A stretch of DNA of 64,000 nt from an uncultured Actinomycetes bacterium (GTDB lineage: Bacteria; Actinomycetota; Thermoleophilia; RBG-16-64-13), in the NCBI GenBank assembly GCA_947085635.1, contig CAMTXC010000006.1, positions 11,564 through 75,563 of the forward strand. The letters run 5' to 3'. The translations under genes were made by a program, and so were the position numbers. Shown piece after piece: positions 25,608 through 61,675 of this stretch. The first letter of the stretch is position 1, and each line of letters starts with the position of its first letter. The notes under the pieces are model-generated. The model had not been told where the DNA came from. It ran no database searches and saw only the letters and a program-made list of their open reading frames with translations.

Positions 25608-25629
25608 GCGAAGAGACGAGGGAGACGGC

Positions 25630-35002: not shown

Positions 35003-35124
35003 GCGCACTGAATGATGGGGGCCCGTGGGGCCCCCGACTGTTCTTACTCGGCCCACACCGGGCCATGGCGGACGTTGCGGAGGTGGCTGAGGTGAGTGGT
35101 GCGATCGGAGAAACGGCGGAGCGA

Positions 35125-41744: not shown

Positions 41745-41761
41745 CACTACATCGTGTAGTA
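41745..41761. promoter_or_regulatory. Operator-like inverted repeat CACTAC-N5-GTAGTA
   Basis: One mismatch to the TACTAC-N5-GTAGTA motif seen at three other promoters. Lies 67 nt upstream of the TPR gene. Confidence 0.45.
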
Positions 41762-41827
41762 TCCCGTTTCGACGTTCTCCAGTGACGGGCACAGCGGAAT
41801 ATCGGACGGTCGAAAGGAAGCGCACGG

Positions 41828-42514
41828 ATGAATAGGAACTACCTTGTCGCCATCATCGTGGCGGCCGTCGTCGTGGTCGGCCTCATCGTGGTGGTACCCA
41901 ACCTCGATGGCGGGAACACCGGCGGAACCAGCGGAACCACTCTTGGATCCGCGCCGCCCATCCCTGAGGACGCCACCATGCCCGAAGGTCATCCCGACTT
42001 GGGGGAAGGCTCAGATGCGACCGGGACGGAAGCCTCCCTCGAGGCCCTCGTGGCCGAAGCCGAGGCCGCATATGAGGCCGACAAGACCGACCTGGTAGCA
42101 GTCCTGGCGCTCGGAGACGCGTATCTTCAGGCGAACCGAGTCGACGATGCTACCCGCGTGCTGAACGAAGCATTGGCAATCGATGCAGGGAACGCCGAAG
42201 CCAAGGCCGGTCTGGCCATGGTCGACTTCGTGAACGGCGATACCGCGGCCGCGCAGAGCAAGCTCGAAGCCGTCATCGCTGAGTCCCCCGACTCGCAGAG
42301 GGCCTTGTACGATCTCGCCGTGGTCTACTTCTCGACGGATCAGCGCGACAAGGCGAAGGACACCTGGGCGAAGGTGGTCGAGGTCAACCCGCTCAGCGAG
42401 CTGGGCGAGATGGCCAAGCAGTTCATCGATCTCATGGGTCAAACGGAGACCTCGGGCGGCAGCCCGCACGGCGCCGATGGGTCAACGGGGACCACGGCTA
42501 CCACGAGCCAGTGA
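41828..42514 (+). CDS. Membrane-anchored TPR-repeat protein (CcmI/NrfG-like TPR module?)
   Basis: N-terminal TM helix, acidic linker, three or four TPR-like repeats. Confidence 0.65.
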   Translation: MNRNYLVAIIVAAVVVVGLIVVVPNLDGGNTGGTSGTTLGSAPPIPEDATMPEGHPDLGEGSDATGTEASLEALVAEAEAAYEADKTDLVAVLALGDAYLQANRVDDATRVLNEALAIDAGNAEAKAGLAMVDFVNGDTAAAQSKLEAVIAESPDSQRALYDLAVVYFSTDQRDKAKDTWAKVVEVNPLSELGEMAKQFIDLMGQTETSGGSPHGADGSTGTTATTSQ

Positions 42515-42589
42515 TCGGGTTCGACCAGCCGGCCCTCGTGGGCCTCACCGGCCTCGTAGGCCTCGCGTGCCTCACCGGGAGAGTCACGC

Positions 42590-43477
42590 TTGTATCCTGA
42601 GCTCTTCAGCATAGGCCCGGTAACCATCCACTCCTTCGGGGTGATGATGTCGCTGGCCTTCCTGGTCTCGGGGGCGGTGGCCGCGTGGCAGCTCAAGCGT
42701 CGGGGGATAGACCCGGAGCTCGCGTACTCGCTGCTCATCGCCGCCATCGTCGGCGGCGTGTTGGGCGCCAAGGTGCACTATCTGCTCGTGCACCCCGATC
42801 AGTTCCGCGAAGCGGCGTTCAGCGGCTCGGGCTTGATCTGGTACGGCGGACTGTTCGGAGGCGTGATCGCCTGCACGGTGGTCGCCGCGCTGTCGAAGCC
42901 GCGCACGGCGCTCGTAGCCGACGCGATTGCTCCGGCCCTCGCGGCCGGCTATGCCGTCGGCCGGGTGGGGTGCCTGTTGAACGGCGACGACTACGGTGTC
43001 CCCACAAGCCTGCCCTGGGCGATGTCGTTCCCCCAGGGCTCTCCGCCGACGGATCTTCTGGTGCATCCCACCCAGATATACGAGAGCCTCATGTCGCTCG
43101 TCATCCTGGGTGTTCTGCTGTGGGTGCTCGCCCCTCGCCTCAAGCGGGCCGGCGCCTTGTTCTGGTCGTATGTGGGCTTGGCCGGCGTCGAGCGGTTCAT
43201 CGTGGAGTTCGTGCGCACGAACGACGACGTCCTCTTGGGCCTCACGCAGGCCCAGGTGATCAGCGTGGTCCTCATGGTGGCCGGCGTCGCCGGCGTGTGG
43301 TGGCTCGAGTCGCGCCCCGCCGGTCTTGCGGCCGCCGGCGGTGGCTCCGCGGGAGGTCACCCAGGGGCCCAGCGGGTGCGGTCCTCCTCCTCGCCGCGAG
43401 TCTCTACCGGCGGCTCGAAGGCGGGCGGCTCGAAGGCGGACGGCTCGAAGGGTCAAAGAAAGCACACGCGGGCGTGA
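42590..43477 (+). CDS. lgt: Prolipoprotein diacylglyceryl transferase
   Basis: HSFGVMM, GGLFGG, GRVGCLLNGDDYG and HPTQIYES motifs. TTG start. The C-terminal tail contains a 15-bp x3 repeat (GGSKA). Confidence 0.9.
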   Translation: MYPELFSIGPVTIHSFGVMMSLAFLVSGAVAAWQLKRRGIDPELAYSLLIAAIVGGVLGAKVHYLLVHPDQFREAAFSGSGLIWYGGLFGGVIACTVVAALSKPRTALVADAIAPALAAGYAVGRVGCLLNGDDYGVPTSLPWAMSFPQGSPPTDLLVHPTQIYESLMSLVILGVLLWVLAPRLKRAGALFWSYVGLAGVERFIVEFVRTNDDVLLGLTQAQVISVVLMVAGVAGVWWLESRPAGLAAAGGGSAGGHPGAQRVRSSSSPRVSTGGSKAGGSKADGSKGQRKHTRA

Positions 43478-43547
43478 GGGTTGGCCCCTCCGCAGACTCA
43501 CCGACTTGCGCATAAAATAGGAGAAACCGACTTCAGGAGTGGTCTCG

Positions 43548-44693
43548 ATGGTCTTCGGCATGATTTCACGGATCCGGCTACGCGCCGTCCTCTACATCGC
43601 GGTGCTCGTGACGACCTCGCTGATCCTGGCCGCATTCGTCGCAGCCCAGCCGGTCGCAGCCGAGGAGCACACGACCACGTCGACCACGTCCGGCACGACC
43701 GACGAAACGACCTCGGTCACGACGGGCGGTACGACCAGCGAGACGACCACAGCCGTGGTCGCTCGACCCGGCGTCACCCCTGCCCCAGAGGGCTACGAAC
43801 CGGTGAACCCCGGCTTGGTGGCCGCGCAGATGGGGGTGCAGATCTGGCCGGAGTACGACACCAAGGACGTGCTGGTGCTTCTCGACGTCACCCTGCCGGC
43901 TACCACCGTGTTCCCCTACTCCTTCAGCTTCTACGTGCCGAAGGGGGCGAGGCTCGCCGGCTTGGCGGAGATCACCGAGGCCGGCGGCTTCGACTACACG
44001 CTCGGCGTCCCCGTCCAGGTCCCCGGCGAGGTGATGGACCTCGTCACCGTCACGGTGCCCAAGCGCCCGGTGCTTCGACTTGAGTACTACTACGATCCAG
44101 GCGTCGGCGTTCCGGGTCAGAAGTCGTTCCCGATCCTCTTCCAGGCTCCCGCCGACGTGGGTTCACTGTCCTTCGGCGTGCAGCAACCATCGGACGCTAC
44201 GGGTTTCTCGACTGAACCGGCCTTGCCCCAGACGTCCACCGACTCTGAAGGCTTCACCTACTTCTTCACGAACTTCTCCGCCATCAAGGCGGGCGAGATG
44301 GTCGAGGTGCAGGTTTCATACACCAAGACCAGTGCCGATCCATCGTTCTCTTCCGGTTCGACCGGCGGCGATCCGGTACAGGCGACGAACAGCAACCTAC
44401 TGTTGCTGATGCTTGCTGCCATCGTTCTCGTTATCGGGGGGATGGTCGCGTATCGTCTGTTGGGCCGCCGTGAGCCTGCGCCCGCCGGCAGGGGCGCCGC
44501 TTCGCGGGCGGGTGGAAGTGCGGCCGGTCGGCCGGGTTCGCGATCCGATAGTCGATCGAAATCGCGCGCCTCCGGCGGTCAGGGCTCGAGTGAGGACGCG
44601 GGCGGGCCCGCACGGTTCTGCACGCAATGCGGAGGCCGCCTGCAGAAGAAAGATCGTTTCTGTCCGGCCTGCGGGCACCCGCGGGAATCTTGA
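43548..44693 (+). CDS. Secreted-domain / single-TM / cytoplasmic zinc-ribbon protein, paralog 1
   Basis: Signal peptide, Thr-rich linker, IWPEYD...YYYD...SY.K domain, TM helix, C-terminal FCTQCG..RFCPACG. Confidence 0.7.
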   Translation: MVFGMISRIRLRAVLYIAVLVTTSLILAAFVAAQPVAAEEHTTTSTTSGTTDETTSVTTGGTTSETTTAVVARPGVTPAPEGYEPVNPGLVAAQMGVQIWPEYDTKDVLVLLDVTLPATTVFPYSFSFYVPKGARLAGLAEITEAGGFDYTLGVPVQVPGEVMDLVTVTVPKRPVLRLEYYYDPGVGVPGQKSFPILFQAPADVGSLSFGVQQPSDATGFSTEPALPQTSTDSEGFTYFFTNFSAIKAGEMVEVQVSYTKTSADPSFSSGSTGGDPVQATNSNLLLLMLAAIVLVIGGMVAYRLLGRREPAPAGRGAASRAGGSAAGRPGSRSDSRSKSRASGGQGSSEDAGGPARFCTQCGGRLQKKDRFCPACGHPRES

Positions 44694-44760
44694 TGGAGAA
44701 TCTTGATGGTCTGAAGGCTCCGGCCGGTCAAGACGGACGCCCGGTTGAGATCCCCGCGTC

Positions 44761-44800
44761 TACTATGAGACGTAGTTGATTCCTACTACACTGCGTAGTA
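44761..44800. promoter_or_regulatory. Two adjacent operator-like repeats: TACTAT-N5-GTAGTT and TACTAC-N5-GTAGTA
   Basis: Positions 44761-44777 and 44784-44800, about 100 nt upstream of paralog 2. Confidence 0.5.
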
Positions 44801-44900
44801 TGATGCCGCAGAAGTAAGCGCCGGCGTTCACAAGCTTGGTGGTTGGCGGATCCATATGCCGGCGTACGGACCGTATACCAGCGGCACGAGGGGATCTAGC

Positions 44901-45857
44901 ATGAGTAGTTCTGGCGGAAGACGGTATGTGAGGGCGGCGCTTGTGGTACTGACCTCCTTGGCGTTGGTGCTCCTGCTCAGTCCGGCAGCGTTGGCCGCCG
45001 GGATGTCGGCTTCATCGATGAAGGTATCGATTTGGCCCGAGTATGACGACCCCCGCGTGTTGGTGATATACCAGGCGGAACTCGATGAATCGGTGCAGCT
45101 TCCCGTGGACGTGACGTTCAATGTGCCGAAGGGAGCCGAAGTCGCGATGGCGTGCGAGGTCGACCCATCGGACGGACATTCCTGCAAGCCTTTCGAACTC
45201 GTCGACCAAGGCGACTATCAGAGCCTCACCTACAAGGTGGAGACCCAGCGGAAGGTCTTCTTCGAGTACTACTACGATGCCTTCCCGGTCGGGCAGACGC
45301 TGCGCGAGTTCGATGTGCCTCTTCGCCTCACCTTTCCGGTGACCGAGCTGACCGTCGAGGTGCAGGAACCCGCACGATCGAGCGGGTTCGTTCTGAACCC
45401 CGACTTCCCCCGGCAGACGCAGGATTCCAAGGGGATCACGTACCATCTCCAGACAATCGCGTCTCCCGCTCTTGATGAGCCTGTGACGGTTGGTATCTCG
45501 TACAGCAAGCAGGACTCCGATCCGTCGGTGGCGCCTTCGTCTGATGGTTCCGCACCGACCCCGGCCGCCGCCGGTGGAAGCGTTGGTTTTTCCAACGGTA
45601 AGACCTTCGCCTTCCTCGTGGTGATCGTGGGTATCGGCGCGCTCGGCCTGGGGGGCTACAGTGTGCTCCGGCCCCGCCCAGCGGTGGCCCGGAGCCGAGC
45701 TGCGACCCCGAATAGGAGAACCTCGAGGCCGGTGCGCGAGGTCCAAGGCGGCGACGTCAGGTCGGCTCGTGGGCAAGGCAAGTTCTGCACTCATTGCGGC
45801 GAGAAGATAGGTGGGCGCGACCGCTTCTGCCCCGACTGTGGCAACGAGCAAGGCTGA
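44901..45857 (+). CDS. Secreted-domain / single-TM / cytoplasmic zinc-ribbon protein, paralog 2
   Basis: Same architecture and shared motifs (IWPEYDD, FEYYYD, ISYSK, FCTHCG..RFCPDCG). ATG 44901 follows GAGGGGA. The ORF-track start is 44856. Confidence 0.7.
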   Translation: MSSSGGRRYVRAALVVLTSLALVLLLSPAALAAGMSASSMKVSIWPEYDDPRVLVIYQAELDESVQLPVDVTFNVPKGAEVAMACEVDPSDGHSCKPFELVDQGDYQSLTYKVETQRKVFFEYYYDAFPVGQTLREFDVPLRLTFPVTELTVEVQEPARSSGFVLNPDFPRQTQDSKGITYHLQTIASPALDEPVTVGISYSKQDSDPSVAPSSDGSAPTPAAAGGSVGFSNGKTFAFLVVIVGIGALGLGGYSVLRPRPAVARSRAATPNRRTSRPVREVQGGDVRSARGQGKFCTHCGEKIGGRDRFCPDCGNEQG

Positions 45858-45893
45858 TCAGGTGCGTGCACGCGACCTCGACGGGCTGCCGGC

Positions 45894-46478
45894 ATGAAGA
45901 TGCGCCCCCTGATTACCGCTTTAGTGCTTGCCGTGGTGGGCGCTTTGGCCGTGTGGTCCTTCTGGGCCAACGTGCTGGACCCGCACCCCGCGGGTGCCCC
46001 GAGCGCTGCGGCGCCTAGCTCCGCGCCCCCGAGCTCGGCGCCCCCCGCGGAGAGCTCGCCGCTGCCGCCGGCGCTCGCCGGCCTGCTTCTCGTAGCCGAG
46101 TTGAGCGGAGAGCAGGGCCTCGCCTCCGTTGAGCAGCTTCACGGCAAGGCGCTCGGCAAGGGCTTGGACGCGGCGTGGGTGGGTGAGTACGAGAGCCAAC
46201 AAGGTCGTGCCACCCTGTGGGTGAGTAGGTCTGTGCGTGAGATAGACGCAGAGGACCTGCTGGTACGCATGACCGATCGAATCATGGAGGGAGGCTCACC
46301 TTTTTCCCAGCCGGTGCCGATTGAAATGCAGGGCGTGCCGGCATACCGGCTGGAAGGTATGGGCCAGGTGCACTACTACTTTCGGTCGGACGGCTACGTC
46401 TATTGGCTGGGAATCGACGCCCCGTTGGCCGAGGGCGGCCTCGGCGAGTTGGTCGCCGCTGCCAAGGCGGTGAAGTGA
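45894..46478 (+). CDS. Hypothetical membrane-anchored/secreted protein
   Basis: N-terminal TM or signal sequence, Pro/Ser/Ala linker, globular domain. No family recognised. Confidence 0.55.
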   Translation: MKMRPLITALVLAVVGALAVWSFWANVLDPHPAGAPSAAAPSSAPPSSAPPAESSPLPPALAGLLLVAELSGEQGLASVEQLHGKALGKGLDAAWVGEYESQQGRATLWVSRSVREIDAEDLLVRMTDRIMEGGSPFSQPVPIEMQGVPAYRLEGMGQVHYYFRSDGYVYWLGIDAPLAEGGLGELVAAAKAVK

Positions 46479-46543
46479 GATATGGACGGCGTGAAACGTA
46501 AACTGCGAGATGCGGTGGTCGTCGAGCGAAGGAGCGGGTCGCG

Positions 46544-47005
46544 GTGACGGAATCGAATGCGGCGCCCGTGGCGGTGGGCGGTTCGAGGCGCAGGTGGAAG
46601 ATGATCGCGGGCGCGGTCGTGCTCGCGCTTGCCGCGGGCTGGTTGTTGCTCTACGTGACGGTGGGAGGCGACTTCTACATGACCGTGGGCGAACTCGAGG
46701 AAGCCGGCGACGCCGCCAACGTGCGAGTGGGCGGGCAGGTTGTGCCGGATAGCGTCACCCAAATGGGAGATACGGCTACCTTCACGATACGGGATGATTC
46801 GGGCGCTGCTCTCGACGTGATCTACACCGGAGCCTTCCCCGAGCGTTTGCGGTCGTACGAATACGTCGTGGCCACGGGTTCTGTGCAGCCCGGCGGTCCC
46901 TTCGAGGCTGTGGAGGTTCTGGTAAAATGCCCCGACAAGCTCTTTGCTGAGAAACTCACCAATGGCGTCCTCGGTGGAGTGGGTCTCGAAAGGGTCCTCT
47001 ATTGA
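46544..47005 (+). CDS. ccmE: CcmE heme chaperone paralog 1 (Cys variant, KCPDKLF)
   Basis: N-terminal TM helix, OB-fold-like core (VRVGGQV...). Cys sits at the position of the heme-binding His. Confidence 0.75.
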   Translation: MTESNAAPVAVGGSRRRWKMIAGAVVLALAAGWLLLYVTVGGDFYMTVGELEEAGDAANVRVGGQVVPDSVTQMGDTATFTIRDDSGAALDVIYTGAFPERLRSYEYVVATGSVQPGGPFEAVEVLVKCPDKLFAEKLTNGVLGGVGLERVLY

Positions 47006-47081
47006 GCACTCCATCTCTCATTCCCGCTGTGCCTCACGAGATCACCGGCCGGTCGTTGTCGTTCCCGGAAGGGGTAGTCGC

Positions 47082-47504
47082 ATGGAGTCAAAGAAGCTGA
47101 AGTTTCTGGTGGGCGGTGTTGTGATCATAGGAGCGATCGCTACGCTGGCCTTCTTCGCGGTCCGCGAGAACATGGTGTACTACTACACGGTCACGGAGAT
47201 GCTCGACAAGGGCCGGTCGGCGAACGTGCGCGTGGCGGGCGACTTGGTCAGCGGAACCCTTGTCAAGGGCGGAGTGGGCGAGCCCATCGAGTTCGAGATC
47301 TACGACAAGGAAGCCACGGAGAACACGCTGTTCATCAAGTACACGGGCGCTGTGCCCGACACGTTCGTGGACGATCCGAACCAGCCGGTGGAGGTCGTCG
47401 TAGAAGGGGACTATCTTTCGGACGGTACCTTCGCTGCAGACTTCCTCATGGCGAAGTGCCCGAGCAAGTACGAGAGTGCGGAGAGCGCGGCCGCGGGGAA
47501 GTAA
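47082..47504 (+). CDS. ccmE: CcmE heme chaperone paralog 2 (CxxxY variant, KCPSKY)
   Basis: N-terminal TM helix, VRVAGDLV core, C-P-S-K-Y motif. Confidence 0.8.
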   Translation: MESKKLKFLVGGVVIIGAIATLAFFAVRENMVYYYTVTEMLDKGRSANVRVAGDLVSGTLVKGGVGEPIEFEIYDKEATENTLFIKYTGAVPDTFVDDPNQPVEVVVEGDYLSDGTFAADFLMAKCPSKYESAESAAAGK

Positions 47505-47629
47505 CCGGTCGGACGGGTGCGCCTCGACCATGGGGGCGCATCGTATTCTCGGGACGATGGACAAGTGGAGTCGCTGGCTGACGCCGTCGTACGTCGACGG
47601 CACATGAAAGGCACGGAGGATCAACCTAT

Positions 47630-49633: not shown

Positions 49634-50192
49634 CATGCATGCCGGGCGCCGAATGGTTCGCGCCACAGCCAAGGTGGCTACTGCCAAGGTAGCCGCACGG
49701 CCGGCGTTCGCCCGGCTCACAGCGCTGCTGGGGGCCGTAGTCATCGCCGTCGCCGCGTTACTGTTCATCGCAGCGCCCGCCTTTGCAGTACCGCCGGTAT
49801 CGAGTGTGGCCGACCAGCTCATCTGCCAGTGTGGGTGCGCCGCGGTGCTCACTGATTGCCCACACCAGGAGTGCGGCTGGGGTATCCCGGCCAAGCAGTA
49901 CATCGGCCAGCAGCTGGAGGCCGGCCGGTCGCCGGAGGCCCTCGTGCAATACTACGTGGAGGAATACGGCGAACAGGTGCTCGCCGCTCCCACGAAGCGG
50001 GGCTTCAACATGGTGGCGTGGGTGGCACCCTTCGCCGCGCTCATCATCGGAGCCGTGGCCGTGTACTTCCTAATCGGTATGTGGGCGCGGCGTAACGGCT
50101 CAGATGTGGAGGAGGTGCCGTTTCGTGAGGTCGGCCTCGCTCCTGAAGATCTGGAACGCAGGCTCGATAATGAGCTGCGGGAGTTCGATTGA
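49623..50192 (+). CDS. ccmH: CcmH/NrfF-like protein, Cys-rich variant
   Basis: Signal peptide, LICQCGCAAVLTDCPHQEC, C-terminal TM helix. Overlaps the end of ccmF. Confidence 0.65.
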   Translation: MRSNMHAGRRMVRATAKVATAKVAARPAFARLTALLGAVVIAVAALLFIAAPAFAVPPVSSVADQLICQCGCAAVLTDCPHQECGWGIPAKQYIGQQLEAGRSPEALVQYYVEEYGEQVLAAPTKRGFNMVAWVAPFAALIIGAVAVYFLIGMWARRNGSDVEEVPFREVGLAPEDLERRLDNELREFD

Positions 50193-50253
50193 GCGGCGGC
50201 CTGTGTGTCCGGTGCGTTAGGCGGGTCGCGTCGATTGTCGGCAGCGCGAAGGA

Positions 50254-50874
50254 GTGATGCTGAAGGTGTTCGAGATGCTGATTCAGGTGATACTGGCTTT
50301 GTCGGTCGTGGCCTTCATCGGCTACCCGCTCCTCAGGGCCGCGCAGACGGGCGAGGCCGAAGCACAGCCACTCTCCGAGGAGTTGGAGGACCTTCTCAGC
50401 AAGAAGGAGTCCACGTACTCCGCTTTGAAGGAACTCGAGTTCGATTTCAAGATGGGCAAGCTGTCCGAGAAAGACTACGTGGAGATCGACGCGCGCTATC
50501 GCGATGATGCCCTGGAGATACTCGGGGCGATTGAGGAGGCGGAGAAGGGATCACCCTCAGATGGTTCTGGCGCCCCTCGCCGCACCAAGAAAGCCCGACC
50601 ACAGGTGGAAAGCCGCCCACCGACGATCGCGAGGCCGAAGCCCGCGAAGGCGACCACCATCGGAAAGACGGCAGCGACTGTCACCTGCGCCGACTGCGGT
50701 CGCGAGAACCCGCCGGGTTCCCGCTTCTGCGCCTCGTGTGGTGTGGATCTCGAGGAGGCTTCGGCGAATGCAGACGCGGGCGGCTCCGACGAGCTCGTCT
50801 GCGACGAGTGCGGGCGTGACGTGGCAGCCGATCACCGGTTCTGCGCCGGCTGTGGCGCGGAGGTGGAGGCCTGA
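50254..50874 (+). CDS. CcmI-like N-terminal TM segment fused to a coiled-coil region and a double zinc ribbon
   Basis: ILALSVVAFIGYPLLR resembles the CcmI N-terminus. The C-terminus has CADCG..RFCASCG and CDECG..RFCAGCG. Confidence 0.6.
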   Translation: MMLKVFEMLIQVILALSVVAFIGYPLLRAAQTGEAEAQPLSEELEDLLSKKESTYSALKELEFDFKMGKLSEKDYVEIDARYRDDALEILGAIEEAEKGSPSDGSGAPRRTKKARPQVESRPPTIARPKPAKATTIGKTAATVTCADCGRENPPGSRFCASCGVDLEEASANADAGGSDELVCDECGRDVAADHRFCAGCGAEVEA

Positions 50875-50942
50875 GATCACCGGTCGTCGAGGAGACGGGT
50901 GGGGACCGGGCCATCCTGGGCGGCACGTCCGGGGGCCGGGAC

Positions 50943-51662
50943 TTGGCCATTCGCGTGAAGGGTCTGTGGAAGTACTTCGATCACTTCCCGGCGATCCGCG
51001 GGCTCGACGTGGAGTTGGAGCTCGGGCGGTTCCTCACGGTGTTCGGACCCAACGGGGCCGGCAAGACCACCCTCATCAAGGTGCTCTCCACCCAGATCGG
51101 GCCGTCGCAGGGCCAGGTCGAGGTGGGGGGGTGCGTGCTTCCCGGTCAGGCGGACCGCCTGCGCCGGCGTGTGGGAGTGATCTCGCACAACACCTACCTC
51201 TACCCGAACTTGACGGCGCGGGAGAACCTGACGTTCTTCGGGCGCATGTACCGGGTGCCCGATCTCGAGGAACGCATCAAGATGCTCCTGGAAGAGGTCG
51301 GCCTGAGCGGCCGCCGCGACGACCTCGTGCGCACCTACTCGAGGGGCATGCAACAGCGGCTCTCCATCGCGAGGGCGCTTCTGCACGACCCCGATATCAT
51401 GTTCCTCGATGAGCCCTACACGGGGCTCGACCAGCATGCCTCGAGGATGTTGCGCGACGTTCTGAAGACGCTCCATACCGGCGAACGCACACTCGTGATG
51501 ACTACCCACAACATCGAGCAGGGTCTCGAGATGTGCGACGAGGTGGCCATCCAGGTGCGGGGGCGCCTTGTCTTCAGAGAGAACGTGGCCGCCATCGACA
51601 GGGCGGCCTTCGAACAGACCTATTTCGATCACGTGGGCAAGGACTTCCGTTGGGATTCCTGA
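50943..51662 (+). CDS. ccmA: Heme exporter ABC ATPase CcmA
   Basis: Walker A (GPNGAGKT), signature YSRGMQQR, Walker B (MFLDEP). Start is uncertain (TTG 50943 or GTG 50955). Confidence 0.85.
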   Translation: MAIRVKGLWKYFDHFPAIRGLDVELELGRFLTVFGPNGAGKTTLIKVLSTQIGPSQGQVEVGGCVLPGQADRLRRRVGVISHNTYLYPNLTARENLTFFGRMYRVPDLEERIKMLLEEVGLSGRRDDLVRTYSRGMQQRLSIARALLHDPDIMFLDEPYTGLDQHASRMLRDVLKTLHTGERTLVMTTHNIEQGLEMCDEVAIQVRGRLVFRENVAAIDRAAFEQTYFDHVGKDFRWDS

Positions 51663-52327
51663 GCCAAGCCTGGATCATCGCCCGCAAGGACATCATCGGG
51701 GAGCTCCGCACTCGGGAGACGATCCTCTCCATGCTGCTCTTCGGCTTCCTGGTGATCCTGATCTTCAACTTCGGCATCGAGCCGGGGCTGCGGGAAGAGA
51801 ACCTCGTGAAACCCGGTGTGCTCTGGGCGGCGTTCACCTTTGCCGGCATCCTCGGCCTCAACCGAAGCTTCATAGCCGAGAAAGAGAACGACTGCCTGCA
51901 GGGCCTGCTGCTCTGCCCGGTGGACCGCTCAGTCATCTACCTCGGCAAGTTCTTCGGGAACTTCATCTTCACCCTGAGCATGGGCCTGGTGGTGTTCCTG
52001 TTTTTCTCGGTGCTTTACAACGTGAACCTGGCGCAGGTGGCACTGCCTCTAGGCGCCATCCTCGTGCTCGCGACCATCGGCTTCGCCGCGGTCGGCACGC
52101 TATTCGCGGCGGTATCGGTGGGCCTGAAGACGCGCGACGTGATCCTCTCGATCCTCCTCTTCCCGGTGATGGTGCCCGTGGTGCTCGCCGCCGCGAAGTC
52201 GTCGGGGCGGGTGCTCGACGGCGTTCCGCTGGCCGGCGCCGGTCTGTGGCTCGCCTTGCTGGTGGTCTATGATGTGATATTCCTGACGGTGTCCATCATG
52301 CTGTTCGACTATGCGGTGGAAGAATGA
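51650..52327 (+). CDS. ccmB: Heme exporter membrane protein CcmB
   Basis: Six TM helices with CcmB-like motifs (FNFG, LLCPV). TTG start overlaps the end of ccmA. Confidence 0.8.
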   Translation: MGFLSQAWIIARKDIIGELRTRETILSMLLFGFLVILIFNFGIEPGLREENLVKPGVLWAAFTFAGILGLNRSFIAEKENDCLQGLLLCPVDRSVIYLGKFFGNFIFTLSMGLVVFLFFSVLYNVNLAQVALPLGAILVLATIGFAAVGTLFAAVSVGLKTRDVILSILLFPVMVPVVLAAAKSSGRVLDGVPLAGAGLWLALLVVYDVIFLTVSIMLFDYAVEE

Positions 52328-53124
52328 TGACGACCGTGTCTGGAGGGATTACCGTGGAGCACGACACGCAGGCGGCCGTCGCGGGTGGAGGATCCTCCGG
52401 CGGCGGTGTGACCACTGCAACGACCCCCCCTCTGCCTGACTCGGGGCGCACCCTCTGGTTCGACATCCTGGGCGTGGCGGCCATTGTCTCGGTGCTCGTG
52501 GCGCTCTACGGCGCCATCGTCTGGGCCCCTACCGAGGCGGTCATGGGCCACGTGCAGCGCATCTTCTACTTCCACATGCCGAGCGCCTGGGTGGCGTTGG
52601 GGCCCGCGTTCACCATCGTCTTCATCTGCAGCATCGTGTACCTCGTGAAGAAAGACCTGCGCTACGACCGGATAGCGGGGGCTTCCGCGGAGCTGGGAGT
52701 GCTCTTCACCACGATCACTCTTCTCACCGGACCCCTGTGGGCCAAGCCCATTTGGGGCGCCTACTGGACCTGGGATCCGCGTCTCACCACCACGCTGGTC
52801 CTGTGGTTCATCTACGTGGCCTACCTCATGCTCCGGTCCTCTATCACCGAGGGACACAGGCGCGCCCGACTCTCGGCTGTGTTCGGCATCGTCGGGTGGA
52901 TCGACGTGCCGATCGTCTTCATGTCGATCCGGTGGTGGCGAACGATCCACCCCACCTTGGTCACCGGGGAAGGCATGAACCTCGACAGCTCGATGCAGGC
53001 CGTGCTCCTATTCTCCCTAGGCGCCATCACTCTCCTGTATGTGTTCCTTCTCGTCGTGCGGGTCCGTCAGCTTGACATGGGCTCGCGCATCGATCGTCTT
53101 CGTCAACAATTCCACCTGCGCTAG
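52324..53124 (+). CDS. ccmC: Heme exporter protein CcmC
   Basis: WGAYWTWDPRL WWD motif. ATGA overlap with ccmB. Confidence 0.9.
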   Translation: MMTTVSGGITVEHDTQAAVAGGGSSGGGVTTATTPPLPDSGRTLWFDILGVAAIVSVLVALYGAIVWAPTEAVMGHVQRIFYFHMPSAWVALGPAFTIVFICSIVYLVKKDLRYDRIAGASAELGVLFTTITLLTGPLWAKPIWGAYWTWDPRLTTTLVLWFIYVAYLMLRSSITEGHRRARLSAVFGIVGWIDVPIVFMSIRWWRTIHPTLVTGEGMNLDSSMQAVLLFSLGAITLLYVFLLVVRVRQLDMGSRIDRLRQQFHLR

Positions 53125-53135
53125 GAGTCTTCTGC

Positions 53136-53279
53136 ATGAGTGAGCTAGGTTTCCTGTTCGCCGGTTACGCCGTGGTGTGGGTCGCTCTCGGAGGGTACAT
53201 GCTCGCTGTCGGCCGTCGCCAGTCCACGCTGCGGCGTGAGATCGCCCGGCTCGAACAGGAGTTCAACAGCGGGGAGTGA
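53136..53279 (+). CDS. ccmD: CcmD-family small membrane protein (47 aa)
   Basis: Below the ORF-track cutoff. TAGGAG Shine-Dalgarno site, a single TM helix (FAGYAVVWVALGGYML), then a basic and coiled tail. Confidence 0.65.
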   Translation: MSELGFLFAGYAVVWVALGGYMLAVGRRQSTLRREIARLEQEFNSGE

Positions 53280-53348
53280 GCCGGTACGAACCGTCGGTCC
53301 TGTCTTCTCCCCGGACGATCGCGAGGCCGCGGGGCTCTTGCTGTGCCC

Positions 53349-53365
53349 TACTACGACTGGTAGTA
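53349..53365. promoter_or_regulatory. Operator-like inverted repeat TACTAC-N5-GTAGTA (putative autoregulatory site)
   Basis: Perfect 6-5-6 inverted repeat 33 nt upstream of the BlaI-like gene. Confidence 0.55.
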
Positions 53366-53397
53366 TTCGAGCACATCGGGGAGGAAGGTGGTTGCCC

Positions 53398-53835
53398 ATG
53401 GACGGAGCGGTGAATCTCAACACGGGTCAAGAAGGTCTGCGTCAGGTACTCGGCGAGCTCGAGGCCGAGATCATGGAGCGCATGTGGGATCGCGGCTCTT
53501 CGTCGGTGCGCGATATCTACGAATGTCTCGCCGAGAGGCGTGAGATCGCATACACCACGGTCATGACGGTGATGGGCAGGCTGGCCGACAAGGGCCTGCT
53601 CAGCCGCAGGCAGCAGGGCCGGGCCTATCTGTACAGCCCATCGGAGACGCGTGGTTCGTTCTGCGCCGGAGTCGTGCGGAGTGTGGTGGAGGGTCTCTTC
53701 GGGGGCGCGAACCGCCCCGTGCTCGCCCACTTCGTGGAGCAGCTGTCGGAGGAGGACGGAGCCGATCTCGACATGCTTGCCGCCATCATCGATGAGAAGC
53801 GCCGGGAGCGGCGATCATCGACACCTTTGGCCTGA
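53398..53835 (+). CDS. BlaI/MecI/CopY-family winged-helix transcriptional repressor
   Basis: E.EIM..W, Y.TV.T...RL..KG motifs. ATG follows GGGGAGGAAGG. Confidence 0.85.
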   Translation: MDGAVNLNTGQEGLRQVLGELEAEIMERMWDRGSSSVRDIYECLAERREIAYTTVMTVMGRLADKGLLSRRQQGRAYLYSPSETRGSFCAGVVRSVVEGLFGGANRPVLAHFVEQLSEEDGADLDMLAAIIDEKRRERRSSTPLA

Positions 53836-53870
53836 CAGTCACCTACGCGCTCATCCTGGCCGGGCCTTGG

Positions 53871-54896
53871 TTGGTCCGCCGCTTTCTCGAGGGACGCGCG
53901 CGGCCGCGCACGCTGGCCTACACCTACCTCGCCACTCTTCTCGCCGCCGCGGGCGCTACGCTCGCCCTGCTCGTATCCCTCTTGCTGCGCTATCTGCCGC
54001 ACGGCCTGCTCACTCGGGCGGGACTGGCGTGCGACATGGAAGTAGCCTGTGCGTCGCCCCTACCGCCCTGGGCGGGCTCCACATTCTCCTTCCTCATCGG
54101 CGGAGTGATCGTGGGGCTTGTGCTGTTCGCCGGGGTCGCGATATATGGGCAGACTAGTTGCTCCACGCGTAGACGACTCGACGTGGTGAGTTCGGCGATG
54201 GAGTTCCCCTGTGCGGTCCCGTCGGGCCTGCGCGGGCGGGTGTACCTCGTCGACGACCCCGCGCCCGTCTCCTACACCATCGGCTTCTGGCGTCCTCAAG
54301 TCATCGTATCTTCGGGTCTCCTTGCCACCCTCGACGAGGACGAGCTCCGTGCGGCCCTCGCGCACGAGGAGGGCCACGTGGTCGCGGGTGACAACCTCAT
54401 GGTGCTCGTGGCGCGCACGCTTGCCCTGACCTTCGCTCTGGTGCCCGGCGTCGGCATGGCCTACGCCCGGTTGCGCAAGGCGCAGGAGCGGGCGGCCGAC
54501 GAGTTCGCCCGCGATCGCACCGGCGACGGCCTTCTGGTGGCCGCCAGTCTCACGAAGTTCGCACGTTCACTGCTCGCGCCGGCGCCTTCCCGGCGGGTCG
54601 AGATCGCGACCACGTCTTTCGCCGAAGAGGGAGATGTGAGCGAACGTGTCCGCGGCCTCCTCTCCAACAGCCGTGTCGCCACCTCGAAGCGCCGACTGGC
54701 AGCGGTAGCCCTCGCTTTCGTGGTGCTCGTGGCCACGTTCTCCGGCAGCGCCCTGGCGTTCACCGGCGTCACGTTGGCCTCTCGGTCCGACTGCTCGACG
54801 TGTCATGAGCTGCGGGTGGTGTCGGCCGGCGCTGCCACGATGCACGAGAACCCGAGCCTGCACGCGGAGTGCGTGGATACCTTCGTTCAGCACTGA
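53871..54896 (+). CDS. BlaR1-like M56/M48 zinc metalloprotease sensor with C-terminal CxxCH motif
   Basis: HEEGH motif, multiple TM helices, final TM helix followed by SDCSTCHE. Start is uncertain because the upstream in-frame sequence looks like another TM helix but has no canonical start codon. Confidence 0.75.
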   Translation: MVRRFLEGRARPRTLAYTYLATLLAAAGATLALLVSLLLRYLPHGLLTRAGLACDMEVACASPLPPWAGSTFSFLIGGVIVGLVLFAGVAIYGQTSCSTRRRLDVVSSAMEFPCAVPSGLRGRVYLVDDPAPVSYTIGFWRPQVIVSSGLLATLDEDELRAALAHEEGHVVAGDNLMVLVARTLALTFALVPGVGMAYARLRKAQERAADEFARDRTGDGLLVAASLTKFARSLLAPAPSRRVEIATTSFAEEGDVSERVRGLLSNSRVATSKRRLAAVALAFVVLVATFSGSALAFTGVTLASRSDCSTCHELRVVSAGAATMHENPSLHAECVDTFVQH

Positions 54897-54981
54897 TCGC
54901 GTAGCCCGGCGCCCCGCCCCGCCGCCTCCCTTCGCCCCGCAGGAAAATAACACCCGTCTCGGTCGCGGGGCCTTGTTCACC

Positions 54982-54998
54982 TACTACGCTCTGTAGTA
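54982..54998. promoter_or_regulatory. Operator-like inverted repeat TACTAC-N5-GTAGTA
   Basis: Perfect repeat 44 nt upstream of the DUF2318 gene. Confidence 0.55.
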
Positions 54999-55041
54999 CT
55001 ATGGCTGCAGCCGATACACCCTGTGAGAGGGAGATGGAGAC

Positions 55042-55674
55042 GTGTCGAAGAAACAGACGGCCCGGAAGGGCGATCTGAAGGCAAAGCGGGAGCGTTTCGA
55101 AGAGGCCGGGAAGTTCCCCGTGGGGAAGCTGATCGCGGTGAGTGTCATCGTGCTCGGGCTCGCGTTCGGCGGCTTCGCGGCGTACCAGTACTTCGTGGCA
55201 CCGCAGGCGGTGGGCGGCGCGACCGTGGACTCCGGCGTCTCGTATCCGGCGGGTCAGGTGCCCATGGTGCCGCTCGACGCGCAGCAGACCGCCGAAGGCC
55301 TTTCCTTCCCGGTGCAGGGTCTGAAGGACAACCTCATCGTGGGGCTCACGTACGAGCGCTCGCAACCCATGCCGGCCGGATACCAAGCCGCGACGGGTGG
55401 AAGCAGCCTGCCGCTTCTCAGCTACATCTCCCCGAAGGGGAACCTGGTGGTGGCGACTTCGTTCTGCGAACCGTGCCGCGGTGACAGCTTCCACATCGAC
55501 GGCAACGCCTTGGTGTGCGACGTCTGTTTCACTCGTTGGGACCTCGACACGCTTGAAGGCCTGTCGGGCGGGTGCATGGCGTATCCTCCTGAAGAAGTGG
55601 CCGCGGAACTAGTAGGCGACACCGTGTTCATCCCCAAAGCCGATCTCGAGGCGTGGGTGCCGAGGGCATTCTAG
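55042..55674 (+). CDS. DUF2318-like membrane-anchored Cys4 protein (FetA/Cj1660-like)
   Basis: N-terminal TM helix. C-terminal CEPC...CDVC...GGC pattern. Confidence 0.65.
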   Translation: MSKKQTARKGDLKAKRERFEEAGKFPVGKLIAVSVIVLGLAFGGFAAYQYFVAPQAVGGATVDSGVSYPAGQVPMVPLDAQQTAEGLSFPVQGLKDNLIVGLTYERSQPMPAGYQAATGGSSLPLLSYISPKGNLVVATSFCEPCRGDSFHIDGNALVCDVCFTRWDLDTLEGLSGGCMAYPPEEVAAELVGDTVFIPKADLEAWVPRAF

Positions 55675-56891: not shown

Positions 56892-56895
56892 CGTC

Positions 56896-58940: not shown

Positions 58941-59045
58941 TGAGAGGAAGGCCGATGAGAGGAAGGCCGATGAGAGGAAGGCCGATGAGAGGAAGGCCGA
59001 TGAGAGGAAGGCCGATGAGAGGAAGGCCGATGAGAAGAAGGCCGA
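58941..59045. repeat. 15-bp tandem repeat x7 (tgagaggaaggccga); each copy carries AGGAAGG followed by ATG
   Basis: Six perfect copies and one variant, read directly from the sequence. In frame it encodes (MRGRP)n. Confidence 0.95.
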
Positions 59046-60592: not shown

Positions 60593-60624
60593 GAGGGGGG
60601 CGGGCGCCGGCCGGCCCTCTTTTG
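60593..60624 (+). terminator. GC-rich hairpin followed by TCTTTTG
   Basis: GAGGG...CCCTC stem flanking a GC-rich interior, then a T-tract. Confidence 0.5.
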
Positions 60625-60676
60625 CTGCGAGGCGCGCGAACTACGCGCGCAAAGTGCGGCGCGCGCGAATCGAGAT

Positions 60677-60706
60677 CACGCACGGTGCGCGCACGCACGG
60701 TGCGCG
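60677..60706. repeat. 15-bp tandem duplication x2 (cacgcacggtgcgcg)
   Basis: Read directly from the sequence, upstream of fdhD. Confidence 0.9.
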
Positions 60707-60741
60707 GAGCATCTGACCTGAGCGGACAAGGTGGCGAGCAC

Positions 60742-61671: not shown

Positions 61672-61675
61672 GGCC

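What the first reader, a model, noticed from the sequence alone, without database searches (positions are those of the whole stretch)
41745..54998. Recurrent TACTAC-N5-GTAGTA operator defines a putative BlaI-type regulon for envelope redox and cytochrome maturation genes
The same 17-bp inverted repeat occurs in four promoter regions. It is perfect at 53349-53365 (upstream of the BlaI-like repressor), 44784-44800 (upstream of zinc-ribbon paralog 2) and 54982-54998 (upstream of the DUF2318/FtsX/ABC/TlpA-Sec/CcdA operon). A one-mismatch copy lies at 41745-41761, upstream of the TPR protein and in the region divergent from the ferredoxin-rhodanese operon. A degenerate second copy lies at 44761-44777. 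I did not find the motif at comparable quality inside coding regions. BlaI/MecI/CopY repressors bind TAC-containing inverted repeats and are inactivated by a cognate BlaR1-type membrane protease, and that protease is encoded immediately downstream. This BlaI/BlaR1 pair therefore appears to control cytochrome and redox maturation accessories, not beta-lactam resistance or copper resistance.
Basis: partly seen in the sequence, partly recalled or inferred. Interest (0 to 1): 0.75.

Follow-up and report, generated by a model that had tools for sequence, protein, structure and literature searches.

The report
BlaI-type operator controlling cytochrome c maturation
A 17-base palindrome (TACTAC-N5-GTAGTA) sits on four promoters and is very probably where a BlaI-type repressor, paired with a membrane protease that has no antibiotic sensor, switches off the whole cytochrome c maturation machinery of an uncultured actinobacterium.

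Summary
TACTAC-N5-GTAGTA is perfect at 44784, 53349 and 54982, has one mismatch at 41745 and two at 44761. About 0.0005 perfect copies are expected in the window. All five copies lie in the roughly 9% of the region that is intergenic, and each overlaps a -35/-10 promoter.

About ten related Thermoleophilia/Actinomycetota MAG lineages (BlaR identity 50-93%) keep the operator at the same four positions while the flanks have diverged. The motif co-occurs with the BlaI recognition helix AYTT[VI][ML]TV. It also appears in unrelated loci, where such BlaI/BlaR pairs sit next to Sco1/PCuAC copper-chaperone genes.

The site at 44784 heads the whole ccmEEFH-ABCD operon, not only a zinc-ribbon gene. The predicted regulon is:
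- a CcmI-like TPR gene with lgt
- Ccm system I
- blaIR itself
- a FetABCDE-like ABC/DUF2318 module with a selenocysteine TlpA and CcdA

The protease lacks a penicillin-binding domain. It ends in a short Cys/His tail, CXXCH in this subclade, so the signal is probably envelope thiol, haem or metal status. That signal is unproven.

This is a new variant of the known non-canonical BlaIR systems. No binding or expression experiment exists.

The parts
41745..41761 (.). Operator O-TPR (CACTACATCGTGTAGTA). The left half-site is imperfect. The right half plus T forms the -10 TAGTAT (41757-41762). It lies 66 nt before the TPR start codon.
   Evidence: It is conserved at the orthologous position in L010, L011, L013, L014, L015 and L016, always with a non-T first base.
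41828..42514 (+). TPR protein, CcmI/CycH/NrfG-like, a candidate apocytochrome chaperone.
   Evidence: TPR_19; TPR_CcmH_CycH at 36.5 bits, below the cut-off of 42. Precomputed PF23914 hits on orthologues. One source names a homologue CcmH/NrfG.
42590..43477 (+). Lgt, prolipoprotein diacylglyceryl transferase. Same strand, 75 nt after the TPR gene.
   Evidence: LGT, 189 bits. The TPR-lgt order is conserved in all relatives.
43539..44693 (+). Membrane protein with a C-terminal zinc ribbon (paralog 1).
   Evidence: Conserved after lgt in relatives.
44761..44777 (.). Auxiliary upstream operator (TACTATGAGACGTAGTT, 2 mismatches). Its right half overlaps the -35. It is centred 23 bp from the main ccm operator.
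   Evidence: One-mismatch copies lie at the same place in L004/L010 (1914/12908) and L011 (12927).
44776..44804 (+). ccm operon promoter, TTGATT-17-TATGAT.
   Evidence: 9 of 12 consensus matches. TTG and TAnnAT are conserved in all lineages.
44784..44800 (.). Operator O-ccm (perfect). It lies between the -35 and the -10 and overlaps the -10.
   Evidence: Perfect at the orthologous position in L001, L004, L007, L008, L011, L013, L014, L015 and L016.
44901..45857 (+). Zinc-ribbon paralog 2 (signal/TM, exported domain, TM, cytoplasmic zinc ribbon). It is the first gene of the ccm transcription unit in this genome and is absent in several relatives. An alternative start lies at 44856.
   Evidence: L001, L014 and L015 lack it, and there the operator sits directly before the next gene.
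45894..46478 (+). Conserved membrane-anchored protein of unknown function (194 aa), always placed before ccmE.
   Evidence: An orthologous gene of 177-221 aa is present in all relatives.
46544..47504 (+). Two tandem CcmE genes (46544-47005, and 47504 as the end of the second; the longest ORF of the second starts at 46944).
   Evidence: CcmE, 64.9 and 72 bits.
47630..50192 (+). CcmF (47630-49633) and CcmH (49623-50192).
50254..50874 (+). Membrane-anchored double zinc-ribbon protein, embedded in the ccm operon in all relatives.
   Evidence: Synteny.
50943..53279 (+). CcmA (50943-51662), CcmB (ends 52327), CcmC (52324-53124) and CcmD (53136-53279).
53280..53298 (+). Terminator-like hairpin immediately after ccmD.
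53338..53366 (+). blaIR promoter, TTGCTG-17-TAGTAT, read by eye. It is below the scan tool's threshold.
   Evidence: Sequence. cTTG and TAGTAT are the only conserved blocks besides the operator in six lineages.
53349..53365 (.). Operator O-blaI (perfect), the autoregulatory site.
   Evidence: Conserved in L001, L004, L006, L007, L008, L017, L019, L020, L021 and L044. Absent in L015, where ccmD and blaI are only 17 nt apart.
53398..53835 (+). BlaI-family winged-helix repressor (145 aa). Recognition helix AYTTVMTVMGRL. No CopY Cys motif.
53871..54896 (+). BlaR-type M48/M56 zinc metalloprotease (341 aa). HEEGH and E206 are present. There is no penicillin-binding domain.
54792..54806 (+). CSTCH (CXXCH) motif in the roughly 45-residue C-terminal tail that follows the last transmembrane helix. 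This tail is the presumed extracytoplasmic sensor.
   Evidence: Conserved in the closer subclade only.
54982..54998 (.). Operator O-fet (perfect), between TTGTTC (54973-54978) and TACTAT (54997-55002).
   Evidence: Conserved in L001, L004, L006, L007, L008, L017, L018, L019 and L044. L007 and L044 carry two copies.
55042..55674 (+). DUF2318/FtrD-like membrane protein (FetA-like).
   Evidence: PMC10783030.
55734..58823 (+). Two MacB/FtsX-type permeases (55734-56891, 56896-58053) and an ABC ATPase (58125-58823). Together they are FetBCD-like.
59045..59587 (+). TlpA/ResA/FetE-like lipoprotein thioredoxin. An in-frame TGA at 59288-59290 replaces the first Cys of the active site (W-U-P-S-C), so it is a probable selenoprotein. 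The start could lie at any of the repeated ATGs from 58955 to 59045.
   Evidence: (TGA conserved in 9 loci).
59584..60306 (+). CcdA/DsbD-type transmembrane thiol reductant transporter. Its start overlaps the tlpA stop (ATGA).

Best explanation
TACTAC-N5-GTAGTA is most likely the operator of the BlaI-family repressor encoded at 53398-53835.

Proposed mechanism:
- A repressor dimer binds the palindrome. The palindrome lies between the -35 and the -10 and overlaps the -10 of four promoters, so binding blocks RNA polymerase. The ccm promoter has a second, weaker site over the -35.
- The four units are:
  (1) a CcmI-like TPR gene, lgt and a zinc-ribbon gene;
  (2) the complete Ccm system I operon (zinc-ribbon 2, an unknown gene, ccmE, ccmE, ccmF, ccmH, a double zinc-ribbon gene, ccmABCD);
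  (3) blaI-blaR itself;
  (4) a FetABCD-like DUF2318/MacB-type ABC module with a selenocysteine TlpA-like thioredoxin and CcdA.
- Together these supply haem export and ligation, apocytochrome handling and the extracytoplasmic thiol-reducing pathway. In other words, they cover everything needed to make c-type cytochromes.
- Derepression is inferred to work as in BlaI/BlaR1. The adjacent M48/M56 membrane metalloprotease, when activated, cleaves the repressor in its dimerisation helix. Here His-Phe aligns with the staphylococcal Asn101-Phe102 cleavage site.
- The activating signal is not a beta-lactam. The sensor is a short Cys/His tail (CXXCH...H..C in this subclade) together with a conserved Cys-containing loop on the presumed outer face. 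This points to envelope thiol-redox, haem or metal status.

Shown here: the motif, its significance, its promoter position, its conservation, its co-occurrence with the BlaI type, and the family assignments.

Inferred: DNA binding, repression, proteolytic derepression and the nature of the signal.
For: - Three perfect and one one-mismatch site, against 0.0005 and 0.024 expected. All are intergenic.
- The operator overlaps promoter hexamers.
- In intergenic alignments the flanks have diverged. Only the TTG of the -35, the operator and the -10 are conserved, in lineages whose BlaR identity falls to 50%.
- The site before the TPR gene is kept, with a systematically imperfect left half, in seven loci.
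- In L015 the blaI site is missing exactly where blaI is fused to the ccm operon by a 17-nt gap.
- Co-variation: 21 of the 22 loci that encode the AYTT[VI][ML]TV helix carry a site with at most one mismatch. The exception, L033, ends before the stretch that holds the sites in its relatives. None of the 12 loci with other helices carries one.
- Distant BlaI/BlaR pairs of the same helix type have the same operator before Sco1 and PCuAC genes (L031) and before their own blaI (L045).
- BlaI family membership, and alignment to M. tuberculosis BlaI and to the S. aureus BlaI/MecI cleavage region.
- BlaR: HEXXH and Glu are invariant, and the best structural matches are S. aureus BlaR1.
- Synteny of the whole cluster in all relatives.
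Against: - No binding, footprint or expression data exist.
- No whole genome could be scanned, so the true size of the regulon and the genome-wide background of the motif are unknown. Only 64 kb plus about 20-kb neighbourhoods were seen.
- Close relatives contribute little independent evidence.
- The BlaR model has only moderate confidence (pLDDT 65, TM-score 0.39 to BlaR1). Topology is inferred, not shown.
- The Pfam M56 score is only just above its cut-off (34.5 against 31).
- The cleavage-site residue is His, not Asn.
- The published M. tuberculosis BlaI operator could not be retrieved for comparison.
Confidence: 0.8

Rival explanations
1. The palindrome is a real cis-element, but another transcription factor binds it. 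Candidates are the DtxR/IdeR-like protein at 31425-32264, the CsoR-like protein at 32304-32690(-), or a factor encoded elsewhere. On this view the BlaI-like protein has a different operator.
For: Two metal-responsive regulators are encoded about 10 kb upstream. No binding experiment links BlaI to the site.
Against: - The motif follows the BlaI gene into unrelated contexts (L031/L034/L035 with Sco1/PCuAC, and L045) and tracks the recognition helix type.
- One copy sits directly upstream of blaI, as in autoregulated BlaI/MecI systems.
- From general knowledge, IdeR and CsoR operators look different (the iron box TTAGGTTAGGCTAACCTAA, and GC-rich CsoR sites).
Confidence: 0.07
2. The system is a metal sensor of the CopY type or a metal-triggered BlaR. 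It mainly controls metal or iron handling through the Fet-like module, and ccm regulation is secondary. Copper, iron or zinc binding to the Cys/His tail would be the signal.
For: - The tail and loop carry conserved Cys and His. The broader family shows C-x3-H...C-x3-H tails.
- A distant pair with the same operator controls copper chaperones.
- The FetABCDEF homologues in C. jejuni are iron-regulated and needed under iron limitation.
Against: - The repressor lacks the CopY CxCx4CxC motif.
- No FetM/FetP (FTR1/P19) gene lies in the window.
- Three of the four operators serve Ccm, CcmI-like and blaIR genes.
- This rival differs from the main explanation only in the signal and is compatible with its mechanism.
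Confidence: 0.25
3. The repeats are not protein operators. They could be RNA or DNA hairpins, for example transcript 5' stem-loops or a small repeated or mobile element, or simply a shared promoter feature.
For: The sequence is an inverted repeat that could form a 6-bp hairpin with a 5-nt loop. The right half doubles as a -10-like TAGTAT.
Against: - The site lies largely upstream of the predicted transcription start, between the -35 and the -10.
- The stem is short and AT-rich.
- The half-sites are conserved in sequence rather than through compensatory change, while the 5-nt spacer varies freely.
- No flanking repeat or transposase suggests mobility.
- Rfam gives no hit.
Confidence: 0.03

Closest known systems
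Mycobacterium tuberculosis / M. abscessus BlaI-BlaR (Rv1846c-Rv1845c)
   Same: - Closest solved homologue of the repressor (2G9W, E 2.5e-18), with an almost identical recognition helix (AYTTVMAV against AYTTVMTV).
[quoted passage not shown]
   Different: - The regulon here is cytochrome c maturation and thiol-reduction genes, not blaC or ATP synthase.
- The protease has a Cys/His (CXXCH) tail.
- I could not retrieve the published M. tuberculosis operator sequence, so operator identity is untested.
Staphylococcus aureus / Bacillus licheniformis BlaI-BlaR1 and MecI-MecR1
   Same: - Adjacent repressor and membrane zinc protease genes, an autoregulated operon, and palindromic operators over the promoter. 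Two dyads, as at the ccm promoter, are also a feature from general knowledge.
- The cleavage region aligns: VLAHF here against LVLNF.
- BlaR1 cryo-EM structures are the best structural matches.
   Different: - There is no penicillin-binding sensor domain and no beta-lactamase or PBP2a target.
- The half-site is TACTAC with a 5-nt spacer, rather than the TACA/TGTA core (general knowledge; PMC7253601 gives TACANNTGTA for CopY-type sites).
CenIR of Clostridioides difficile and other non-canonical BlaIR systems (PMC13492132)
   Same: The BlaR-like sensor lacks a transpeptidase domain and has a short, probably unstructured C-terminal tail. The regulon consists of envelope genes and the signal is unknown. 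That paper reports that only about 6% of M56 proteins have a beta-lactam-binding domain.
   Different: The phylum, the regulon (peptidoglycan hydrolase against Ccm) and the tail differ. Here the tail has conserved Cys and His residues that suggest a redox, metal or haem ligand.
CopY/CopR copper repressors
   Same: The same Penicillinase_R winged-helix family, with TAC-containing palindromic operators.
   Different: There is no C-terminal CxCx4CxC copper site, a partner protease is present, and no CopA/CopZ targets are seen.
Campylobacter jejuni FetABCDEF module (cj1660-cj1665; PMC10783030, PMC6083913)
   Same: The gene set and order match: a DUF2318 membrane protein, two FtsX-type permeases, an ABC ATPase and a membrane-associated thioredoxin. 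The thioredoxin active site is CPSC in FetE and UPSC here.
   Different: - It is Fur/iron-regulated and linked to FetMP in C. jejuni. Here no FetMP is nearby, CcdA is appended, the thioredoxin is a predicted selenoprotein, and the promoter carries the BlaI-type operator.
- FetA here is short (210 aa, no YHS domain).

Membership tests
BlaI/MecI/CopY repressors (Pfam PF03965 Penicillinase_R) | Winged-helix N-terminal domain matching the family model above its curated cut-off | tested here: met
   102.4 bits against a cut-off of 22.6; hits to 2G9W, 1SD4, 1P6R and 1OKR.
BlaI/MecI/CopY repressors (Pfam PF03965 Penicillinase_R) | C-terminal dimerisation helix carrying the protease cleavage site (Asn101-Phe102 in S. 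aureus BlaI/MecI) | tested here: inconclusive
   the region aligns (pvlaHFveq against slvlNFak / slvlNFVE), but the residue is His rather than Asn. Cleavage cannot be tested here.
BlaI/MecI/CopY repressors (Pfam PF03965 Penicillinase_R) | Binds a palindromic operator overlapping its own promoter (autoregulation) | tested here: inconclusive
   A palindrome overlaps the blaI promoter, is conserved, and co-varies with the recognition helix. Binding itself cannot be tested with these tools.
BlaR1/MecR1 sensor proteases (peptidase M56) | Membrane zinc metalloprotease domain with HEXXH plus a downstream Glu, matching M56/M48 models | tested here: met
   M48 at 47.2 bits (cut-off 20.3) and M56 at 34.5 bits (cut-off 31). 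H165, E166, H169 and E206 are invariant. S. aureus BlaR1 structures are the top structural matches (probability 1.00, TM-score 0.39).
BlaR1/MecR1 sensor proteases (peptidase M56) | Encoded next to a blaI-type gene | tested here: met
   blaI ends at 53835 and blaR starts at 53871. The pair is conserved in all relatives.
BlaR1/MecR1 sensor proteases (peptidase M56) | C-terminal extracellular penicillin-binding (transpeptidase, PF00905) sensor domain | tested here: not met
   One search gives no PF00905 hit. Only about 45 residues follow the last transmembrane helix. It is therefore a non-canonical BlaR-like protein, not a beta-lactam sensor.
CopY copper-sensing repressors | C-terminal CxCx4CxC (or CxC) metal-binding motif | tested here: not met
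   there is a single Cys (Cys89) and no C-terminal Cys motif.
c-type cytochrome (for the BlaR tail) | CXXCH haem-attachment motif on the extracytoplasmic side, conserved among orthologues | tested here: inconclusive
   CXXCH is invariant in the 12 sequences of alignment A2. It is degenerate in more divergent lineages that share the same genomic context or belong to the same clade: TCH, GCH, CxxxH and CSH. Topology is inferred from similarity to BlaR1 only. Haem attachment is not testable here.
Ccm system I cytochrome c maturation | CcmA, B, C, D, E, F and H all present | tested here: met
   CcmD is below its cut-off (18 bits against 25.6), but it is a 47-aa gene at the canonical position. No separate CcmG was found; the TlpA-like selenoprotein is the candidate.
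FetABCDEF-type module (C. jejuni cj1660-1665) | DUF2318 membrane protein, two FtsX permeases, an ABC ATPase and CXXC thioredoxin(s), in one operon | tested here: met
   Composition compared with PMC10783030.
FetABCDEF-type module (C. jejuni cj1660-1665) | Linked to FetM (FTR1-type permease) and FetP (P19) | tested here: not met
   Pfam scans of the window's genes found no FTR1 or P19 domain. The rest of the genome was not seen.
Bacterial selenoprotein (thioredoxin-fold) | In-frame UGA at the redox-active Cys position, conserved in orthologues, with a downstream SECIS hairpin | tested here: inconclusive
   UGA is conserved as W-U-P-[ST]-C in 9 loci. Hairpins follow the UGA, but their stability is not exceptional (z = -1.9). 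No SECIS model was run and no selA/selB/selC was seen in the window.

The most novel reading that the evidence does not exclude
The BlaR-like protease may act as a substrate-mimic sensor of cytochrome c maturation.

Its extracytoplasmic tail carries an apocytochrome-like CXXCH motif. Together with the conserved loop cysteines, this motif would be reduced by the CcdA/TlpA pathway and/or receive haem from the Ccm system, and both of those are encoded by the regulon itself. If the tail is oxidised or lacks haem, the protease is active, BlaI is cleaved, and the ccm, tlpA-ccdA and fet-like operons are induced. Once maturation capacity is sufficient, the tail is reduced or haem-loaded and repression returns.

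More broadly, actinobacterial BlaIR pairs that use the TACTAC-N5-GTAGTA operator could be a general class of regulators. They would match the insertion of respiratory cofactors (haem c here, copper through Sco1/PCuAC in L031) to demand.
Probability: 0.15. Interest if true: 0.85.

Novelty: new variant of a known kind. Interest (0 to 1): 0.62.

Why it matters
Dedicated transcriptional control of the Ccm haem-attachment machinery is poorly understood. As far as my library searches went, no BlaI/BlaR-type proteolytic switch has been linked to it.

If the prediction holds, it would give three things:
1. A defined operator, repressor and sensor for cytochrome c biogenesis in an uncultured Thermoleophilia-like lineage.
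2. A concrete case, with a candidate Cys/His ligand site, for the recent claim that most BlaR-like proteins sense something other than beta-lactams.
3. A functional hint for the enigmatic FetABCDE-type module and its selenocysteine thioredoxin, which would be placed in the same regulon as CcdA and Ccm.

The same operator in front of Sco1/PCuAC genes in a distant lineage suggests a wider theme. Actinobacterial BlaIR systems may govern the assembly of respiratory cofactors.

Tried and rejected
1. The published M. tuberculosis BlaI operator. Sala et al. 2009 and Bonefont et al. 2024 are not held. Text searches for the motif with Rv1846c or BlaI gave nothing useful. My recollection that the mycobacterial box is of the TAC..AC-N5-GT..GTA type is therefore unverified and is not used as evidence.
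2. Rfam and tRNA scans of the window found nothing.
3. RNAalifold on the conserved 5'-leader element downstream of the ccm operator predicted no consensus structure.
4. Haem c as the universal ligand of the BlaR tail is rejected as a general rule. Divergent lineages with the same genomic context or in the same clade lack one Cys of the CXXCH motif.
5. A CopY-type or beta-lactam-sensing identity is rejected on missing defining motifs or domains.
6. Control of the divergent ferredoxin-rhodanese operon by the 41745 site is considered unlikely. The operator lies about 90-120 nt upstream of that operon's promoter-like site.
7. Context of the next-closest BlaR clade: P0045 had no DNA available, and the P0057 contig was too short to be informative beyond its own operator.
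8. A genome-wide motif count was not possible.

Full report
**Observation**

The pattern TACTAC-N5-GTAGTA occurs perfectly three times in the 64-kb window, at 44784, 53349 and 54982. None of 100 dinucleotide-preserving shuffles gave a match. With up to two mismatches there are nine hits against 0.16 expected.

From base composition, the expected numbers are 0.0005 perfect sites and 0.024 sites with at most one mismatch. The other four two-mismatch hits (19393, 26359, 46374, 49950) lie in coding sequence. Three of them (26359, 46374, 49950) have an intact TACTAC left half, as a Tyr-Tyr codon pair would give, and a poor right half; 19393 has the reverse pattern. All four sites with at most one mismatch lie in the 9.2% of the 41-63 kb region that is intergenic.

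**Gene map**

Pfam scans give the following on the + strand:

| Coordinates | Gene |
|---|---|
| 41828-42514 | TPR protein, CcmI/CycH-like |
| 42590-43477 | Lgt |
| 43539-44693 | zinc-ribbon membrane protein |
| 44901-45857 | paralog of that zinc-ribbon protein |
| 45894-46478 | conserved unknown |
| 46544-47504 | two CcmE genes |
| 47630-50192 | CcmF, CcmH |
| 50254-50874 | double zinc-ribbon protein |
| 50943-53279 | CcmA, B, C, D |
| 53398-53835 | BlaI-family protein |
| 53871-54896 | M48/M56 peptidase |
| 55042-55674 | DUF2318/FtrD-like protein |
| 55734-58053 | two MacB/FtsX permeases |
| 58125-58823 | ABC ATPase |
| about 59045-59587 | TlpA-like thioredoxin with an in-frame TGA in its active site (W-U-P-S-C) |
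| 59584-60306 | CcdA |
| 60622-62809 | FdhD and DUF1786 |

Upstream of this block lie an alternative-complex-III-like cluster with a multihaem cytochrome c, DtxR-like and CsoR-like regulators, a thioredoxin, a second CcmH, a NiFe hydrogenase, and a divergent ferredoxin-rhodanese unit.

**Position of the sites**

Each site sits on a promoter.
- The scan tool finds TTGATT-17-TATGAT at 44776-44804, with the operator inside it.
- By eye, TTGCTG-17-TAGTAT (53338-53366) and TTGTTC-18-TACTAT (54973-55002) frame the other two perfect sites.
- At 41745 the right half plus T gives TAGTAT.
- A hairpin followed by a T-rich tract lies directly after ccmD (53280-53298). This separates the ccm unit from the blaIR unit.

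An operator that covers the spacer and the -10 is the arrangement expected for a repressor.

**Comparative evidence**

Homologues of the protease and of the TPR protein come only from Actinomycetota/Thermoleophilia MAGs. I fetched their contigs. Gene order is kept from the TPR gene through DUF1786 in all of them.

The operator is present at the same four intergenic positions in about ten lineages, with BlaR identity of 50-93%. In alignments of these intergenic regions the flanks have diverged. Only the TTG of the -35, the palindrome and the -10 remain conserved. In the 33-site compilation the 5-nt spacer is nearly free.

Three details argue for function.
1. The site before the TPR gene has an imperfect first base (C or A; CG in L015) in every lineage. 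It is a conserved weaker site.
2. In relatives that lack zinc-ribbon paralog 2, the '44784' site sits directly before the gene that precedes ccmE. It is therefore the ccm operon promoter.
3. In L015 the ccmD-blaI gap is 17 nt and the blaI site is absent. There blaIR rides on the ccm transcript and is still under the ccm operator.

**Who binds the site**

The 145-aa protein scores 102 bits on Penicillinase_R. Its best solved relative is M. tuberculosis BlaI, 2G9W (E 2.5e-18), and the recognition helix is nearly identical (AYTTVMTV against AYTTVMAV). It has one Cys and no CopY metal motif. Its VLAHF segment aligns with the LVLNF segment of S. aureus BlaI and MecI. From general knowledge, that segment holds the Asn101-Phe102 cleavage site.

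Across all loci that encode a BlaI homologue, the operator tracks the recognition helix.
- Loci with the helix AYTT[VI][ML]TV carry a site with at most one mismatch. The single exception, L033, is cut off before the relevant stretch.
- Loci with AYTSVTTV, AYTTLMTT or other helices carry none.

The association also holds in unrelated contexts. In L031, L034 and L035 a 32%-identical BlaI/BlaR pair is followed by three such sites, each directly upstream of a PCuAC, Sco1/SenC or PCuAC gene and next to CtaG. In L045 a 54%-identical BlaI has the site on its own promoter in a different neighbourhood. This makes BlaI the cognate binder with high probability, although binding has not been shown.

**The protease**

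The next gene matches M48 (47 bits) and M56 (34.5 bits against a cut-off of 31). HEEGH and Glu206 are invariant among homologues. An AlphaFold model (pLDDT 65) finds the S. aureus BlaR1 cryo-EM structures as its top matches (probability 1.00, TM-score 0.39).

There is no penicillin-binding domain. About 45 residues follow the last transmembrane helix. They contain CSTCH, then His and Cys.

CXXCH is invariant in the 12 closest sequences. In more divergent lineages it decays to TCH, GCH, CxxxH or CSH. L019, L044 and L007 keep the same ccm/fet context and operators; P0040, P0042 and P0044 are clade members whose context I did not see. From general knowledge, the Ccm system does not mature single-cysteine sites efficiently, so covalent haem cannot be the universal ligand.

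What is general is a Cys in the TM1-TM2 loop, invariant even in remote clades, together with a Cys/His-bearing tail. I infer a thiol-redox, metal or haem sensor on the outer face. The ligand is unknown.

**The fourth operon**

DUF2318, two FtsX permeases, an ABC ATPase and a thioredoxin match the composition of the C. jejuni FetABCDE(F) module. The FetE active site CPSC corresponds to UPSC here (PMC10783030). In C. jejuni the module supports FetMP iron uptake. Here no FTR1 or P19 gene lies in the window, and CcdA is appended. The TGA is conserved in nine loci, so the thioredoxin is probably a selenoprotein.

**Mechanism proposed**

A BlaI dimer represses four promoters. Together these encode the CcmI-like chaperone with Lgt, Ccm system I, BlaIR, and the Fet-like/TlpA/CcdA reductant pathway. 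An envelope signal read by the Cys/His tail activates the protease, BlaI is cleaved, and the regulon is induced. The steps beyond the cis-element and the family assignments are inferred by analogy with BlaI/BlaR1.

**Comparison with what is known**

Non-canonical BlaIR systems are already recognised as the majority; about 6% of M56 proteins have a transpeptidase domain (PMC13492132). The mycobacterial system reaches into energy metabolism. What appears to be new is the regulon, namely cytochrome c maturation; no paper in the library links the two. The Cys/His (CXXCH) sensor tail also appears to be new. So does the indication that the same operator type governs copper-chaperone genes elsewhere. 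I classify this as a new variant of a known kind.

**Limits**

No experiment exists, and no whole-genome scan was possible. Several relatives are close. The BlaR model has moderate confidence. The published mycobacterial operator could not be retrieved for comparison.

Noticed in passing
window 59288-59290 (within 59045-59587): The TlpA/FetE-like thioredoxin has an in-frame TGA in place of the first active-site Cys (FWATW-U-PSC). The TGA is conserved in 9 related loci, so this is probably a selenocysteine thiol-disulfide oxidoreductase. Two hairpins follow the UGA (z = -1.9 only).
   Followed up: partly
window 58941-59050: A 15-nt tandem repeat (TGAGAGGAAGGCCGA, 7.3 copies, 98% matches) lies between the ABC ATPase and tlpA. 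Each unit carries a Shine-Dalgarno-like AGGAAGG and an in-frame ATG. This gives a ladder of possible starts (MRGRP repeats) in front of the lipoprotein signal peptide.
   Followed up: partly
window about 44816-44835 (and L001 about 2262-2280, L004, L007, L008, L013, L014): A conserved box, AAGCGC...GTTCACAAG, lies about 35 nt downstream of the ccm operator, in the predicted 5' leader. In several lineages it is followed by hairpins that differ between lineages. RNAalifold and Rfam found nothing, so its function is unknown.
   Followed up: partly
L031 6512-8580 (also L034, L035): A distant BlaI/BlaR-like pair from freshwater metagenomes uses the same TACTAC-N5-GTAGTA operator in front of PCuAC, Sco1/SenC and PCuAC genes. 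Caa3_CtaG and a chlorite-dismutase-like (ChdC-type) gene lie next to them. This would be a BlaIR regulon for copper delivery to cytochrome oxidase.
   Followed up: partly
L015 20104-20122: In one relative (a 1.0-Mb contig) ccmD and blaI are only 17 nt apart and there is no operator between them. blaIR is therefore fused to the ccm operon.
   Followed up: yes
L019 6948-7199: One lineage (BlaR 50% identical) lacks the DUF2318/FetA-like gene. It keeps a perfect operator directly before the first FtsX permease.
   Followed up: partly
window 43539-44693, 44901-45857, 50254-50874; also a 41-aa zinc-ribbon ORF after ccdA in relatives (e.g. L001 16958-17083): Several membrane-anchored zinc-ribbon proteins of unknown function are conserved parts of this Ccm cluster. 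They may be lineage-specific accessory factors.
   Followed up: no
window 21064-27891: An alternative-complex-III-like cluster: a ferredoxin, NrfD, ActD, a 592-aa multihaem cytochrome c and a molybdopterin oxidoreductase. It supplies likely substrates for the Ccm system and has no BlaI-type operator upstream.
   Followed up: partly
window 31425-32690: Adjacent, convergently oriented DtxR/IdeR-like (with a FeoA domain) and CsoR-like metal-responsive regulator genes lie about 10 kb upstream of the regulon. A second CcmH-domain gene is at 34804-35637, next to a NiFe hydrogenase.
   Followed up: no
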